A DNA stretch of 64,000 nt, taken from positions 4,487-68,486 of the forward strand of contig MFBU01000015.1 in the NCBI GenBank assembly GCA_001775055.1, read 5' to 3'. Source of the stretch: Candidatus Curtissbacteria bacterium RIFCSPLOWO2_02_41_11. GTDB lineage: Bacteria; Patescibacteriota; Microgenomatia; Curtissbacterales; GWA2-41-24. The stretch's first letter is position 1. Each line of letters opens with the position of its first letter. Made by a program: the position numbers and the translations under genes. Under the pieces are notes generated by a model. That model had not been told where the DNA came from, did no database searches, and saw only the letters and a list, made by a program, of their open reading frames with translations. Of this stretch, positions 1 through 58,956 are shown one piece after another.

Positions 1-257
1 TTAAAGGTGCCGGCGGCTAAAAAAGTTGAAGCGCTGGCAGAAAGTATAAAAAGTAATGCCGGAAAGAAAATCTTATTTTCAATCTTTAATGATTTTTTAA
101 TCGCAAGAGCATATATAATAAATGTTAAATCTGTTGCCAGAACGAAAATATCGGCAAGAGTAATAGCCCCTGATGCCCCTAAAAACGGTAATCTAATAAG
201 TTGACCAGAGATTATTGAAACAAGAACGGCAATTAAAAGAAGAGAAATTGCTTGCAT
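1..257 (-). CDS. membrane protein, N-terminal part only (ORF runs off the 5' window edge); starts ATG at 257-255
   Basis: Reverse-strand translation from ATG(257) is open to position 1 and strongly hydrophobic (MQAISLLLIAVLVSIISGQLIRLPFLGASGAITLADIFVLATDLTFIIYALAIKKSLKIENKIFFPALLFILSASASTFLAAGTF). It is absent from the ORF track, probably because it is incomplete. The overlapping + ORF 7..204 is probably spurious. Confidence 0.35.
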   Translation of the reverse strand, partial: MQAISLLLIAVLVSIISGQLIRLPFLGASGAITLADIFVLATDLTFIIYALAIKKSLKIENKIFFPALLFILSASASTFLAAGTF

Positions 258-278
258 TAGTGAGTTTTCCGCAGTTTG

Positions 279-437
279 TGCACGCACCAGGACTTGAACT
301 TGGGAGATCCCGCCTAAATTTAGTGGGCTCATCAGGACTCGAACCTGAGGCCTTTCGCGTGTGATGCGAATGCTCTACCAACTGAGCTATGAGCCCAAAA
401 TTTTTGGCGGGCTGCTCTGCCACTGAGCTATGCGTGC
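279..437 (-). tRNA. interrupted/nested tRNA gene of unknown isotype: 5' half 437..406 and 3' half 324..279, with tRNA-Val plus A/T spacers inserted in the anticodon-loop region
   Basis: The 5' half reads GCACGCA-TA-GCTC-AGTGGCA-GAGC-A-GCCCGCC (acceptor 5' strand plus consensus D-arm). The 3' half reads AGGCGGG-ATCTC-CCAAG-TTCAAGT-CCTGG-TGCGTGC-A (T-arm with TTCAAGT loop plus acceptor 3' strand). The acceptor strands GCACGCA/TGCGTGC pair perfectly over 7 bp, and the anticodon-stem strands CCCGCC/GGCGGG are complementary. Between the halves lie AAAAATTTT, then tRNA-Val, then ACTAAATTT. Confidence 0.45.
325..396 (-). tRNA. tRNA-Val (anticodon CAC)
   Basis: The reverse complement reads GGGCTCATAGCTCAGTTGGTAGAGCATTCGCATCACACGCGAAAGGCCTCAGGTTCGAGTCCTGATGAGCCC. 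It has a 7-bp acceptor stem and a canonical D-arm (GCTCAGTTGGTAGAGC). The anticodon stem TTCGC/GCGAA carries loop ATCACAC, so the anticodon is CAC. The T-arm is TCAGG-TTCGAGT-CCTGA. CCA is not encoded. Confidence 0.85.
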
Positions 438-483
438 GTTCTGCCCAATTGAAGCAATTTTAACATATAAGTATAATTAAAAA

Positions 484-1062
484 ATGGACATTCGCCAAAC
501 TCTTTGGGCAGTAATTCGTGAAATTATCCAAACAGCTTTAGTTTCACTGGCTATTTTCCTTTTTGTCTATGTGTTTTTAGTTCAACCTCATCGGGTTAAA
601 GGCGAATCAATGCTTCCCAATTTTTCAGATGGAGAATTACTCTTAACTGAAAAAGTTAGCTATTATTTTTCAAAACCTGCCCGTGGAGATGTAATTGTTT
701 TTGAAGCCCCGAATGCCCATAAAGTAGATTTTATTAAACGCATCGTCGGACTGCCTGGGGAAACTGTAAGTATTGAAAACGAAACTGTAGAAATCAACGG
801 CCATCCACTTTCCGAAAATTATACAAATTCTGCCACACAAGGCAATTCAACAATAACGCTTGATCAAAACCAATACTTCGTACTTGGTGATAACCGTAAT
901 TCCTCATCCGATTCAAGATCGTTTGGCCCGATTAACAAAAGTTCTTTCCGGGGAAGAGCCTGGTTGGTTTATTGGCCGATAATCAAAACTGGCGGTTCAA
1001 TGGGGGTAAGATTCGTCTCAAAGAGAGAGTATAGCATCCCTGATACGCTTAATGACTTTTGA
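484..1062 (+). CDS. lepB: signal peptidase I (S26 family)
   Basis: It has an N-terminal TM helix. The S26 motifs are present: SMLPNF (catalytic Ser box), KRIVGLPGE and GDNRNSSSDSRSFGPI. The length is 192 aa. Confidence 0.85.
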   Translation: MDIRQTLWAVIREIIQTALVSLAIFLFVYVFLVQPHRVKGESMLPNFSDGELLLTEKVSYYFSKPARGDVIVFEAPNAHKVDFIKRIVGLPGETVSIENETVEINGHPLSENYTNSATQGNSTITLDQNQYFVLGDNRNSSSDSRSFGPINKSSFRGRAWLVYWPIIKTGGSMGVRFVSKREYSIPDTLNDF

Positions 1063-56946: not shown

Positions 56947-56988
56947 GTCTATAGGTCTCAAACTTCTAAACCAACAATTTTTAGATTA

Positions 56989-57016
56989 TTGACAGAAAAG
57001 TTGTAAGTGGTAGTAT
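56989..57016 (+). promoter_or_regulatory. sigma70-like promoter (TTGACA-N16-TAGTAT), plus strand, copy 1 of repeated module
   Basis: A copy with nearly identical spacing lies at 58707..58734. Confidence 0.4.
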
Positions 57017-57022
57017 GGAATT

Positions 57023-57180
57023 GTCTTATCAGCACGCCCCAAACAAAAAACCTTCGAGATTGAAGTCGTCATGTACTAACGCAATCTTCACTCAATGAGT
57101 ATATCTCACACCTGTCATTGCGAGCGAAGCGAAGCAATCTTACTTCTTGTCATTCTGAACTTGTTTCAGAATCTATTTTT
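57023..57180 (+). ncRNA. candidate ~160-nt plus-strand transcript (promoter to TTCTGAA-loop-TTCAGAA hairpin + TCTATTTTT); antisense to a GT4 5'-end remnant
   Basis: The promoter is as above. The terminator-like hairpin lies at 57153-57180. Confidence 0.25.
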
Positions 57181-58653: not shown

Positions 58654-58706
58654 AGTAGGAGCATATAGTAGACTTGCGGACTTTAAGTGTCAACTTTTTA
58701 GATTAT

Positions 58707-58734
58707 TGACAAAAAAGTTGCAAATGGTAGTATA
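58707..58734 (+). promoter_or_regulatory. sigma70-like promoter (TTGACA-N16-TAGTAT), plus strand, copy 2
   Basis: A paralogous ~190-bp module follows it, with a GT4 remnant plus a hairpin at 58837-58855. Confidence 0.4.
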
Positions 58735-58956
58735 AGAAAGTCCTATCTCCATAGCCCAAAGTAAAAACCTAGTAGATCGAAGTCATCATGGACGAGGGCT
58801 ATTTTCATTAGAAAGATTATATCCCATCCACTGTCATTCTGAACTTGTTTCAGAATCTATACTTCAGTTTGTATTAATGTATTAAAACATTTATACAAAA
58901 GAACTTGTGCATCTGTTGGTATTGGATTATCTGTCGAAACAACCTAAACACTATTA

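What the first reader, a model, noticed from the sequence alone, without database searches (positions are those of the whole stretch)
279..437. tRNA gene split in its anticodon region by an insert that contains a complete tRNA-Val
On the minus strand the sequence 437..406 is a textbook tRNA 5' half: acceptor strand GCACGCA, then TA, then D-arm GCTC-AGTGGCA-GAGC. The sequence 324..279 is a matching 3' half: variable loop, T-arm CCAAG-TTCAAGT-CCTGG, then acceptor strand TGCGTGC plus A. The two acceptor strands pair perfectly over 7 bp. The strands that would form the anticodon stem (CCCGCC / GGCGGG) are also complementary. Between them sit AAAAATTTT, an intact canonical tRNA-Val(CAC) (396..325, same orientation), and ACTAAATTT. 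Both junctions carry AAATTT, which could be a 6-bp target-site-like duplication. The arrangement could be (i) an intron-like insertion in a pre-tRNA that itself encodes a second tRNA, (ii) a tRNA disrupted by a tRNA-containing insertion, or (iii) something processed into two tRNAs. The outer anticodon cannot be assigned from sequence.
Basis: seen in the sequence. Interest (0 to 1): 0.8.

Follow-up and report, generated by a model that had tools for sequence, protein, structure and literature searches.

The report
tRNA gene nested inside another tRNA
A working valine tRNA gene, bracketed by a short inverted repeat, sits exactly where the anticodon arm of an older valine tRNA gene used to be; the same Russian-doll layout recurs in many related ultra-small (CPR) bacteria, which points to an undescribed way of replacing tRNA genes.

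Summary
On the minus strand, 437..279 holds the two halves of a tRNA wrapped around a complete tRNA-Val(CAC) (396..324, Rfam 70.7 bits).

- **Identity of the outer halves.** They come from the resident tRNA-Val(CAC) gene. Relatives with the same wzy–tRNA–lepB–parB synteny carry that gene uninterrupted (L253, LepB 93% identical; also L242 and L002).
- **What changed.** In the filled alleles, positions 26-43 (nucleotide 26 plus the anticodon arm) are replaced by a 103-nt cassette: a 13-nt inverted repeat (CCCGCCAAAAATTT / AAATTTAGGCGGG) around a different tRNA-Val(CAC).
CCCGCC/GGCGGG is therefore not the outer anticodon stem, and AAATTT is not a target-site duplication. Both are parts of the cassette arms, which flank other tRNAs elsewhere (L074, L049).
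- **Consequence.** The outer gene cannot yield a decoding tRNA. The inner gene is the working one.
- **Recurrence.** A metagenome scan found at least 24 more nests (Val, Thr, Ile, Met, Pro and others), mostly with the same anticodon inside and outside. They range from intact to decayed outers, and some are multi-level. Arm sequences of other nests are dispersed palindromic repeats that also sit in-frame in protein genes.

The insertion mechanism is unresolved. No description was found in the searchable literature.

The parts
470..498 (-). Promoter-like site (TTGGCG, 17 nt, TATACT) upstream of the outer 5' half. It is the only candidate promoter for the whole nest.
   Evidence: Consensus scan. 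The 29 nt are identical in L241. Only 15 nt (the left cassette arm and linker) lie between the outer 5' half and the inner gene, so there is no room for a second promoter (read from the sequence).
412..437 (-). Outer 5' half, a remnant of the resident tRNA-Val(CAC): acceptor strand GCACGCA, TA, D arm GCTC-AGTGGCA-GAGC, then AG.
   Evidence: Matches the intact tRNA-Val(CAC) of L253, L242, L002 and L001 up to position 25, apart from D-loop differences.
397..411 (-). Left arm of the cassette inverted repeat (CCCGCC AAAAATTT) plus 1 nt of leader.
   Evidence: The same 14-mer flanks other cargo tRNAs in L074 (Ile) and L049 (Val). It pairs with 309..321. No other copy in the 64-kb window.
324..396 (-). 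Inner tRNA-Val(CAC) with acceptor GGGCTCA/TGAGCCC and discriminator A; no encoded CCA. This is the working gene.
   Evidence: ARAGORN. Rfam RF00005 70.7 bits over positions 1-71 of 71. 1 of 73 differences against L241. The same tRNA type stands alone at the syntenic locus in L250.
309..323 (-). 2-nt trailer (CT) plus the right arm of the cassette inverted repeat (AAATTT A GGCGGG).
   Evidence: The same arm occurs twice in L074.
279..308 (-). Outer 3' half: variable loop ATCTC, T arm CCAAG-TTCAAGT-CCTGG (one A-C mismatch), acceptor strand TGCGTGC, discriminator A.
   Evidence: Homologous to AGGTC CCAGG TTCAAGT CCTGG TGCGTGCA of the empty allele L253. Positions 308..292 vary between strains.

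Best explanation
**What it is.** This is a DNA-level gene replacement, not an intron. The resident tRNA-Val(CAC) gene next to lepB had its position 26 and whole anticodon arm (27-43) replaced by a 103-nt cassette. The cassette is a complete, differently derived tRNA-Val(CAC) gene bracketed by a 13-nt inverted repeat.

**How it works now (inferred).**
1. One transcript starts at the resident promoter and runs through outer 5' half, arm, inner tRNA, arm and outer 3' half.
2. The outer acceptor, D and T helices and the arm helix fold around the inner cloverleaf.
3. RNase P and a 3' endonuclease such as RNase Z, followed by CCA addition, release the inner tRNA-Val(CAC). This is the only decoding product.
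4. The outer halves have no anticodon. They are the remnant of the displaced gene.

**How it arose (inferred).** The cassette belongs to a class of short palindromic repeat elements found in CPR genomes. When such an element carries a tRNA, it can sit in the anticodon arm of the matching tRNA gene without cost, because it supplies a replacement. Filled alleles then spread or segregate among close relatives, and the outer halves erode. At this locus the process has happened at least twice: GCACGCA type into GGA(C/T)(T/C)CG type, then GGGCTCA type into GCACGCA type.

**Shown versus inferred.** Shown: the anatomy, the empty and filled alleles, the recurrence and the portability of the arms. Inferred: the transcription and processing route, the mobility mechanism, and the reason the anticodons match.
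For: **Empty and filled alleles at one syntenic locus (wzy–tRNA–lepB–parB–L27).**
- Empty: L253 (LepB 93% identical) and L242/L243 (69%).
- Filled: the window and 9 further strain contigs, L240 (96%), L251 (93%), L254 (92%), L241 (88%).
- The filled alleles differ from the empty one by replacement of G TCTGT ATCACAC GCAGG with AG + cassette.

**The inner gene looks functional.**
- Canonical tRNA, 70.7 bits, 1 of 73 differences against L241.
- Stands alone at the same locus in L250.

**The outer gene cannot decode.** No excision gives a Val anticodon.

**The arms are portable.** Identical arms surround Ile and another Val cargo (L074, L049).

**An earlier round at the same locus.**
- L114 and L001 hold the GCACGCA tRNA inside GGATCCG/GGACTCG halves.
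- L002 keeps only the 3' relic.
- L244 has the GGACTCG type intact.

**Recurrence.**
- 24 of 63 distinct '5' half followed by a tRNA' segments have a perfect outer acceptor complement, against 3.3 expected (maximum 8 in 200 shuffles).
- Outer positions 34-35 equal the inner anticodon in 13 of 18 readable cases (14 counting L025, which restores).
- Further nests exist for Pro, Trp, Ser, Ala and Thr.

**Decay continuum and multi-level nests.**

**The arms behave as DNA inverted repeats.**
- 419 Watson-Crick pairs, with 5 G-T-type against 7 A-C-type mismatches.
- Arm families of other nests are dispersed repeats and occur in-frame inside an IscS-like gene.

**Promoter.** A promoter-like site lies only upstream of the outer half.
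Against: - **No enzyme identified.** No transposase, integrase or homing-endonuclease gene lies in or next to the window's cassette.
- **Arms not shown to be repeated in this genome.** The window's own arm sequence has no second copy in the 64 kb.
- **No target-site duplication**.
- **Unexplained cargo and outer swaps.** It is unclear how one arm family carries different cargos, or how one outer type (GCGCGCT in L016 and L062) holds two different inners.
- **Precise arm replacement.** Positions 27-43 are precisely missing in at least four separate lineages (window, L118, L102, L020). That is unexpected for random decay.
- **Some sign of constraint on the outer.** Between the window and L241, the outer 5' half plus 3' acceptor/T strand changed less than the spacers (1/40 against 11/55, Fisher p = 0.012). 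The outer scaffold may therefore be maintained rather than decaying.
- **No expression data.** Transcription and processing are inferred.
- **L252.** This allele has a deletion that removes the inner 5' acceptor strand. This tRNA may therefore be dispensable, which weakens the 'must compensate' argument.
Confidence: 0.7

Rival explanations
1. The outer halves are a selected scaffold, not a relic. The acceptor, D and T helices plus the arm helix form a tRNA-shaped holder that helps fold, stabilise or process the inner pre-tRNA. Alternatively they persist as a two-piece tRNA-like RNA with a role of its own.
For: - The outer 5' half and the 3' acceptor/T strand are more conserved than flanking spacers between the window and L241 (1/40 against 11/55, p = 0.012). 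Arms and linkers: 1/30, p = 0.049.
- In the window, L118, L102-Thr and L020-Thr the arm helix abuts the D stem (1-3 nt) and the 5-nt variable loop exactly where an anticodon stem would sit.
- The whole RNA folds far better than shuffles (z = -4.9).
Against: - Many nests have degraded or lost outer halves while keeping arms and inner (L002, L074, L065, and possibly L246/L250).
- The window's own T stem carries an uncompensated A-C mismatch.
- L241 has G at the normally invariant T-loop position 58.
- Close relatives do well with a plain tRNA (L253).
- The conservation test rests on one sequence pair. Conservation could also come from recent recombination with intact alleles.
Confidence: 0.17
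2. The insert is an RNA-level intron. It is cut out of the outer pre-tRNA, either by RNase P and RNase Z acting on the inner tRNA followed by trimming and ligation, or by an unknown endonuclease. The gene would then yield two tRNAs.
For: - Other nests are exactly restorable: TTCG|..|TAA in L098 and CTTA|..|TAA in L103, CTGG|..|GGT in L102-Pro, TTCACA|..|T in L001.
- Phage nests L132 and L128/L184 restore tRNA-Lys(UUU) and tRNA-Arg(UCU) when the inner tRNA plus CCA is removed.
- Group I introns at 35/36 are known in Patescibacteria (PMC13011429).
Against: - In the window, positions 27-43 of the outer gene are absent. No junction gives a canonical 7-nt loop or a Val anticodon.
- There is no group I or group II signal.
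- There is no bulge-helix-bulge, and the host is bacterial.
- The arms show no tolerance of G-U over A-C.
- The arms also occur inside protein-coding genes, where splicing is not expected.
- The eight 'CAAG'-type nests cannot be restored either.
Confidence: 0.04
3. The halves are classical attachment-site debris. On this reading a tRNA-targeting integrative element (tyrosine integrase) once sat here and left partial tRNA copies.
For: - tRNA anticodon loops are known integrase targets (established knowledge).
- Some nests carry a duplicated stretch of the anticodon loop on both sides (L009 TCATGA/TCATAA, L013 ATGA).
- L049 and L074 keep a full loop on one side.
Against: - The insert is 103 nt with no coding capacity.
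- There is no integrase nearby.
- The flanking repeats are inverted, not direct.
- The halves are not copies of the inner gene: all stems differ.
- There is no general duplication at the boundaries.
Confidence: 0.05
4. Chance resemblance or mis-assembly: the flanks only look like tRNA halves, or a chimeric contig joined two tRNA genes.
For: None beyond the prior that short tRNA-like strings occur by chance.
Against: - The identical nest occurs in 10 contigs from independent samples and assemblers, including two NCBI MAGs.
- The halves match a real tRNA-Val gene.
- Recurrence is far above the shuffled control.
Confidence: 0.01

Closest known systems
Group I intron-containing tRNA genes of Patescibacteria, including the 35/36 insertion site (PMC13011429)
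   Same: - Same phylum-level host.
- An intervening sequence in the anticodon loop, at 35/36 in several nests.
- Standard tRNA finders miss the outer gene.
   Different: - The insert here is 103 nt, of which 73 nt is a tRNA.
- No ribozyme core and no Rfam intron hit.
- The 5' exon does not end in U.
- In the window the exons lack the anticodon arm, so nothing can be spliced together.
Archaeal disrupted tRNA genes: bulge-helix-bulge introns, split and permuted tRNAs (reviewed in PMC4033280), and the C/D-box sRNA housed in the Haloferax tRNA-Trp intron (own knowledge)
   Same: - tRNA halves are held together by a G+C-rich helix next to the anticodon region.
- An intervening sequence can itself encode a functional RNA.
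   Different: - Bacterial host.
- No bulge-helix-bulge motif.
- The intervening RNA is a whole tRNA of the same anticodon.
- The outer gene is not reconstituted.
Short palindromic repeat elements that invade genes: Rickettsia palindromic elements, REPINs/REP with RAYT transposases, Neisseria Correia elements (own knowledge)
   Same: - Lineage-specific short inverted repeats dispersed in small genomes.
- Found in-frame inside protein-coding genes (L077 IscS-like).
- No coding capacity.
- An IS200/Y1-like gene lies near one nest (L118).
   Different: - None of these elements is known to carry a complete tRNA gene between its arms, or to sit in the matching tRNA gene.
- No target-site duplication.
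- Dispersal of the window's own arm family is not shown.
Genomic islands and prophages integrated in tRNA genes
   Same: - A tRNA gene is the target, often at its anticodon loop.
- Function is preserved because the incoming DNA supplies tRNA sequence.
- Partial tRNA copies are left behind.
   Different: - Those elements are kilobases long, encode an integrase, are flanked by direct repeats and restore a hybrid gene.
- Here a whole separate gene is delivered in about 100 nt and the old gene is left split around it.
Engineered 'tRNA scaffold' for expressing recombinant RNA (anticodon arm replaced by an insert; own knowledge, Ponchon and Dardel 2007)
   Same: Identical architecture: acceptor, D and T arms intact, with the anticodon arm replaced by a helix that carries the passenger RNA.
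   Different: - This one is natural.
- The passenger is itself a tRNA that the processing enzymes should cut out.
- A stabilising role is not shown here.
Homing introns and inteins (logic only)
   Same: A selfish insertion in an essential gene is tolerated because it repairs the damage it causes.
   Different: Compensation here would come from carrying a spare gene copy, not from splicing. No endonuclease has been identified.

Membership tests
Bacterial tRNA gene (inner, 396..324) | Scores above the Rfam RF00005 gathering threshold over the full model; cloverleaf with a 7-nt anticodon loop | tested here: met
   70.7 bits against a cut-off of 29, model positions 1-71 of 71. ARAGORN calls tRNA-Val(CAC).
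Remnant (pseudogene) of a tRNA gene (outer halves) | Sequence homology to an intact tRNA gene at the syntenic position in relatives | tested here: met
   L253, L242/L243 and L002 carry the intact GCACGCA...TGCGTGCA tRNA-Val(CAC) next to lepB.
Remnant (pseudogene) of a tRNA gene (outer halves) | Loss of a part required for function | tested here: met
   Positions 27-43 are absent, anticodon included. No excision yields a Val anticodon.
Group I (or II) intron in a tRNA gene | Ribozyme core detectable by covariance model; length of roughly 200 nt or more | tested here: not met
   No RF00028 or RF00029 hit at gathering or at E<=10. The insert is 103 nt.
Group I (or II) intron in a tRNA gene | Removal of the intron restores a canonical anticodon stem-loop | tested here: not met
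   323 junction combinations tried. ARAGORN accepts the scaffold, but never with a Val anticodon or a canonical U33/R37 loop.
Bulge-helix-bulge intron or split tRNA (archaeal type) | Two 3-nt bulges separated by a 4-bp helix at the exon-intron boundaries | tested here: not met
   The arm helix is continuous from the junctions. The fold shows no such motif (and inspection).
Bulge-helix-bulge intron or split tRNA (archaeal type) | Host with a tRNA-splicing endonuclease (archaeon or eukaryote) | tested here: not met
   Neighbours are bacterial: LepB, ParB, L27, L21, FtsW/RodA. The closest named LepB relatives are Candidatus Curtissbacteria. Presence of an EndA homologue elsewhere in the genome could not be tested.
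Integrase-borne element in a tRNA gene | Integrase gene and kb-scale element bounded by direct repeats of part of the tRNA | tested here: not met
   103-nt insert, inverted rather than direct repeats, no integrase among neighbours.
MITE or palindromic repeat element (RPE/REPIN-like) | Terminal inverted repeats, no coding capacity | tested here: met
   CCCGCCAAAAATTT against AAATTTAGGCGGG. Arms of 36 nests: 419 Watson-Crick pairs out of 440.
MITE or palindromic repeat element (RPE/REPIN-like) | Many dispersed copies in the same genome | tested here: inconclusive
   - No second copy of the window's arms in 64 kb.
- The same arms occur in two other contigs with other cargo.
- Arm families of other nests are clearly dispersed, including inside an IscS-like ORF.
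MITE or palindromic repeat element (RPE/REPIN-like) | Target-site duplication of fixed length | tested here: not met
   Mean longest shared string at the two boundaries is 3.08, against 3.02 in the shuffled control.
MITE or palindromic repeat element (RPE/REPIN-like) | A cognate transposase acting in trans | not testable with these tools
   Only leads: a Y1/IS200-like ORF near the L118 nest, and an HTH ORF family near the L073, L020, L102 and L107 nests.

The most novel reading that the evidence does not exclude
CPR bacteria harbour a so far undescribed class of mobile or recombining 'tRNA cassettes'. Each is a complete tRNA gene between the arms of a lineage-specific palindromic repeat. The cassette lands in the anticodon arm of the tRNA gene with the same anticodon and takes over its job. 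tRNA genes would then be replaced generation after generation, leaving Russian-doll relics. A related, frame-less form in phage tRNA arrays places one tRNA plus CCA exactly inside the anticodon loop of another. That form may even be a true 'tRNA as intron', removed by RNase P, a 3' nuclease and an RNA ligase.
Probability: 0.4. Interest if true: 0.9.

Novelty: new variant of a known kind. Interest (0 to 1): 0.8.

Why it matters
- **A new gene architecture.** Bacterial tRNA genes are regarded as structurally uniform, with group I and II introns as the only known exception (PMC4033280). A tRNA gene nested in the anticodon arm of its own isoacceptor, recurring across many CPR lineages and tRNA types, would add one.
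- **A new route of tRNA gene turnover.** It implies horizontal replacement of tRNA genes in organisms with minimal genomes.
- **Annotation.** tRNA finders report only the inner gene. Gene callers extend the neighbouring wzy-like ORF over the nest.
- **Testable questions.**
  - What targets the anticodon arm?
  - Why do the anticodons match?
  - Are the palindromic repeats of CPR genomes mobile?
  - Are the exactly restorable nests in CPR bacteria and phages spliced at the RNA level?
- **A natural scaffold.** The tRNA-shaped scaffold around a passenger RNA is also a natural counterpart of an engineered expression tool.

Tried and rejected
- **ARAGORN with intron options.** It does not call the outer gene.
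- **Exhaustive in-silico excision.** It gives a tRNA-shaped product but no canonical loop. Splicing is rejected for this locus.
- **Bulge-helix-bulge and kink-turn readings of the junctions.** Checked by eye on the window, L016, L098 and L025. None fits.
- **Integron-like core sites.** GTTAGAT/ATCTAAC in one arm family fit GTTRRRY/RYYYAAC, but the other arm families do not. Judged coincidental.
- **Target-site duplication or overlap duplication at the arm boundaries.** No excess over control.
- **RNA-level constraint on the arms.** No excess of G-U over A-C.
- **Arms as ordinary leader-trailer helices of all tRNAs.** Only 13% of non-nested tRNAs in the same contigs score as high, and those inspected were mostly themselves flanked by remnants of an outer tRNA.
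- **A repeat family of the window's arms within the window.** None found.
- **Enzyme candidates.** The HTH ORF next to four nests has no informative Pfam, NCBIfam or PDB match beyond the HTH.
- **Cargo-less palindromic insertions in tRNA genes.** None in the fetched loci, but that sample is biased.
- **Possible relics in L246/L250.** Alignment of their flanks to the outer halves is suggestive (TCTCAGATGG, TAGGCGA) but not convincing.
- **Literature.** Six full-text searches found no description of nested tRNA genes.
Full report
**1. The observation**

The minus strand of window 437..279 reads as follows:

| Coordinates | Sequence | Part |
|---|---|---|
| 437..412 | GCACGCA TA GCTC AGTGGCA GAGC AG | outer 5' half |
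| 411..397 | CCCGCC AAAAATTTT | left arm and leader |
| 396..324 | GGGCTCA...TGAGCCC A | inner tRNA |
| 323..309 | CTAAATTT A GGCGGG | trailer and right arm |
| 308..279 | ATCTC CCAAG TTCAAGT CCTGG TGCGTGC A | outer 3' half |

- ARAGORN and Rfam find one tRNA in the whole 64 kb. It is the inner tRNA-Val(CAC), at 70.7 bits.
- The outer acceptor strands pair 7/7 and the D stem 4/4.
- ARAGORN does not call the outer gene even with intron options.
- If the middle is removed in silico, ARAGORN accepts the joined halves as a tRNA for 91 of 323 junction choices. None has a canonical loop or a Val anticodon.
- An Rfam model that behaves as an antisense tRNA spans 278-437 with a 95-nt insertion (23.7 bits, E 0.008).
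- The 160-nt RNA folds much better than shuffles (z = -4.9).
- The identical sequence is present in ten contigs from independent samples and assemblers. It is not an assembly artefact.

**2. What the outer halves are**

A scan of one genome per species with the outer 5' half found two Levybacteria MAGs. In both, GCACGCA...TGCGTGCA is an intact tRNA-Val(CAC). I then followed the neighbouring signal peptidase LepB into relatives. The closest named hits are Candidatus Curtissbacteria. This gave a series at the same wzy–tRNA–lepB–parB–L27 locus.

| State of the locus | Loci (LepB identity to the window) |
|---|---|
| Empty: intact GCACGCA-type tRNA-Val(CAC) | L253 (93%), L242/L243 (69%) |
| Filled: nest as in the window | window and 9 further strain contigs, L240 (96%), L251 (93%), L254 (92%), L241 (88%) |
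| Filled, then damaged | L252 (89%): 41-nt deletion between the two TAGCTCAG repeats; ARAGORN finds no tRNA |
| Inner type (GGGCTCA) standing alone | L250 (72%), L246-L248 (70%) |

- The empty allele of L253 reads GCACGCA TA GCTC AGTTGGCA GAGC G TCTGT ATCACAC GCAGG AGGTC CCAGG TTCAAGT CCTGG TGCGTGC A.
- Comparing empty and filled alleles shows what happened. G26 and the whole anticodon arm (TCTGT ATCACAC GCAGG) are replaced by AG + CCCGCC AAAAATTTT + inner tRNA + C(T/G)AAATTT A GGCGGG.
- The outer gene was therefore also tRNA-Val(CAC).
- CCCGCC/GGCGGG is not its anticodon stem. The palindromic AAATTT is not a target-site duplication.
- Both are parts of a 13-nt inverted repeat that belongs to the insert. 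The same arms flank a tRNA-Ile inside tRNA-Ile remnants in L074 and a third tRNA-Val in L049.

**3. An earlier round at the same locus**

- L114 is syntenic with the window (about 71% nucleotide identity). L114 and L001 hold the GCACGCA tRNA-Val as the inner gene, between arms CCCGCCTGCC...GGCGGG(CAGG), inside halves of a GGATCCG/GGACTCG-type tRNA-Val.
- L002 keeps only the 3' relic of that older gene.
- L244/L245 have the GGACTCG type intact next to lepB.
- The locus has therefore been overwritten at least twice, each time by a tRNA-Val(CAC) placed inside the previous one.

**4. Recurrence**

- I scanned metagenome contigs for a tRNA 5' half followed too soon by another tRNA start (TAGCTCAG N3-6 AGAGC N12-42 TAGCTCAG).
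- Of 63 distinct segments with an ARAGORN inner tRNA, 24 have a perfect complement of the outer acceptor strand 25-105 nt downstream. Shuffled acceptor strings give 3.3 on average, with a maximum of 8 in 200 shuffles.
- About a dozen more have strong arms but degraded or missing outer halves.
- Inner and outer are the same isotype. Where outer positions 34-35 can still be read, they equal the first two inner anticodon bases in 13 of 18 cases. The count is 14 with L025, which restores. Chance is 1/16 per case.
- Nests that my pattern could not see turned up in the same contigs for Pro(GGG), Trp, Ser, Ala and Thr(UGU).
- Neighbouring genes are bacterial and CPR-like: IF-2, aminoacyl-tRNA synthetases, S2, LepB, PilB/PilM, TsaD.
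- Several forms exist:
  - **Exactly restorable nests.** L098 TTCG|..|TAA and L103 CTTA|..|TAA, L102-Pro CTGG|..|GGT, L001 TTCACA|..|T at 37/38, and L025, L073, L009.
  - **A 'CAAG' group.** At least eight different outers share the junction stem-TTNA|TTCA-CCCCGTTAGA..TCTAACGGGG-CAAG|Y-stem. These cannot be restored.
  - **'Arm-replaced' nests like the window.** L118, L102-Thr and L020-Thr.
  - **Multi-level nests.** L074, L065, L046 and L096.
- Inner types of one locus are outer types of another. L012 inner and L066 outer are both GCGCGGT. L033 inner and L016/L062 outer are both GCGCGCT.
- One outer type can hold different inners between identical arms (L016 against L062).

**5. What the arms are**

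- They are almost perfectly Watson-Crick: 419 of 440 pairs in 36 nests. There is no excess of G-U-type over A-C-type mismatches (5 against 7). This is what DNA inverted repeats look like, rather than RNA helices under selection.
- There is no general duplication of flanking bases.
- Arm sequences are similar within a contig and differ between contigs.
- Three arm families (CCCCGTTAGA/TCTAACGGGG, CCCCCACACC/GGTGTGGGGG, CCCGCCTGCC) also occur as stand-alone inverted-repeat pairs away from tRNA genes.
- Two such pairs lie in-frame inside an IscS-like ORF of L077.
- The arms therefore look like the termini of lineage-specific palindromic repeat elements, comparable to Rickettsia palindromic elements or REPINs.
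- For the window's own arm family, dispersal is not shown. There is no other copy in the 64 kb.

**6. How the window's locus most likely works**

- A promoter-like site (TTGGCG-17-TATACT, 498..470) lies upstream of the outer half and is identical in L241. Only 15 nt lie between the outer half and the inner gene, which leaves no room for another promoter.
- I infer one precursor. In it the outer acceptor, D and T helices and the arm helix enclose the inner cloverleaf.
- RNase P and a 3' endonuclease would free the inner tRNA. CCA must be added afterwards, because it is not encoded.
- The outer halves cannot decode.
- Whether they are pure debris is open.
  - Between the window and L241, the outer 5' half plus 3' acceptor/T strand changed at 1 of 40 sites, against 11 of 55 in the flanking spacers (Fisher p = 0.012). 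The arms and linkers changed at 1 of 30 (p = 0.049) and the inner tRNA at 1 of 73.
  - The precise replacement of positions 27-43 recurs in at least four lineages.
  - Against a maintained scaffold: the window's uncompensated T-stem mismatch, G58 in L241, the decay continuum elsewhere, and the fact that close relatives manage with a plain gene.
- The variable loop, T-stem 5' strand and T loop of the outer (308..292) are oddly variable. There are five differences between two strains that differ at one of about 250 other sites. I cannot explain this.

**7. Mechanism of origin**

Not resolved.

- The data fit a DNA-level event. The evidence is the empty/filled polymorphism among close relatives, the inverted-repeat arms shared with dispersed repeats, and the absence of ribozyme or BHB features.
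- Matching anticodons could come from three sources:
  - targeting through homology of the tRNA halves, i.e. spread of a filled allele by recombination;
  - a requirement for identical loop sequence during strand exchange;
  - a survival filter, in which only a cassette that replaces the destroyed function persists.
- L252 suggests that this particular tRNA may be dispensable, which weakens the last argument here.
- No enzyme is identified.
  - A Y1/IS200-like ORF lies 1.2 kb from the L118 nest.
  - An uncharacterised ORF family with an N-terminal HTH lies beside four nests.
  - These are leads only.

**8. Comparison with what is known**

- The closest published case is group I introns at 35/36 in Patescibacteria tRNA genes (PMC13011429). 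That paper does not mention nested tRNAs.
- A review of tRNA gene diversity states that bacterial tRNA genes are uniform apart from group I and II introns (PMC4033280).
- Six full-text searches found nothing on tRNA genes nested in tRNA genes. That library is incomplete, so prior description elsewhere cannot be excluded.

**9. Side finding: phage nests**

- The same scan of viral contigs gave nests of a different style inside phage tRNA arrays. One tRNA with its encoded CCA sits directly in the anticodon loop of a tRNA of another isotype, with no arms.
- Removing it restores tRNA-Lys(UUU) in L132 and tRNA-Arg(UCU) in L128/L184, with all stems perfect.
- These are better candidates than the window for a true 'two tRNAs from one gene' pathway.

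**10. Verdict**

- The feature is one instance of a recurrent and, as far as I can find, undescribed tRNA-in-tRNA architecture.
- The anatomy and evolutionary series are well supported. Processing is inferred. The insertion mechanism and any role of the outer scaffold are unknown.

Noticed in passing
L132 6110-6260; L128 4975-5125; L184 2030-2175 (viral contigs): Phage tRNA arrays contain a tRNA with encoded CCA inserted directly in the anticodon loop of a different tRNA: Asn in Lys(UUU) at 36/37, Phe in Arg(UCU) at 34/35. There are no flanking arms. The outer tRNA is perfectly restored when the inner is removed.
   Followed up: partly
L077 2443-2515 and 3282-3338; L062 2523-2570; L004 1205-1335; L107 4964-5170: The short inverted-repeat pairs that frame nested tRNAs also occur alone. 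Two lie in-frame inside an IscS-like gene, as a 20-aa insertion and an N-terminal extension relative to E. coli IscS. They resemble Rickettsia palindromic elements.
   Followed up: partly
window 292-308 (minus strand), compared with L231, L241, L252, L253: The outer variable loop, T-stem 5' strand and T loop carry 2-3 private substitutions in every filled allele. There are five differences between two strains that are otherwise about 99.6% identical around the locus.
   Followed up: partly
L252 (revcomp of 1-327): A filled allele has lost 41 nt between the TAGCTCAG of the outer and of the inner gene. This leaves outer acceptor strand + inner body + extra arm + outer T arm. ARAGORN finds no tRNA, so tRNA-Val(CAC) may be dispensable in this lineage.
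   Followed up: partly
window 255-332 (minus strand); L230 1569-2849: Public gene calls start the Wzy_C (O-antigen ligase-like) gene at window 332, inside the inner tRNA. An ATG at 257..255, just after the nest, is the likelier start. The 76-aa ORF 193..423 is likewise spurious.
   Followed up: no
L073 49-732; L020 159-824; L102 9018-9647; L107 6105-6752; L118 151-837: A ~220-aa ORF family with a transposase-like N-terminal HTH and an unassigned C-terminal domain lies beside four nests; in L073 it ends at the nest. An IS200/Y1-transposase-like ORF (PF01797, 27 bits) lies 1.2 kb from the L118 nest.
   Followed up: partly
L026 2740-3220; also L011, L038, L057, L058 (Ga0224501/Ga0224511 contigs): Satellite-like tandem arrays (period about 37-70 nt) of a tRNA 5' fragment, GGGATAGCTCAGCGGTAGAGCACTGTATGG. 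They were picked up by the search pattern and are unrelated to the nests.
   Followed up: no
window 278-437 (+); L001 6881-6953 (+); L002 3216-3288 (-): Rfam RF04354 (Plastid-ycf2 5'UTR) matches the antisense strand of ordinary tRNA-Val genes at about 41-43 bits, so it behaves as an antisense-tRNA model. It is a likely source of false sub-threshold hits.
   Followed up: no
window 56978-57119 and 58695-58838: A 144-nt internal direct repeat at 75% identity.
   Followed up: no
L105 7961-8243 and 9451-9742 (-); L196 747-1033 (-); L198 818-1094 (-): tRNA genes with ~200-nt insertions in the anticodon region, probably group I introns. They were found by the script that looked for cargo-less insertions.
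   Followed up: no
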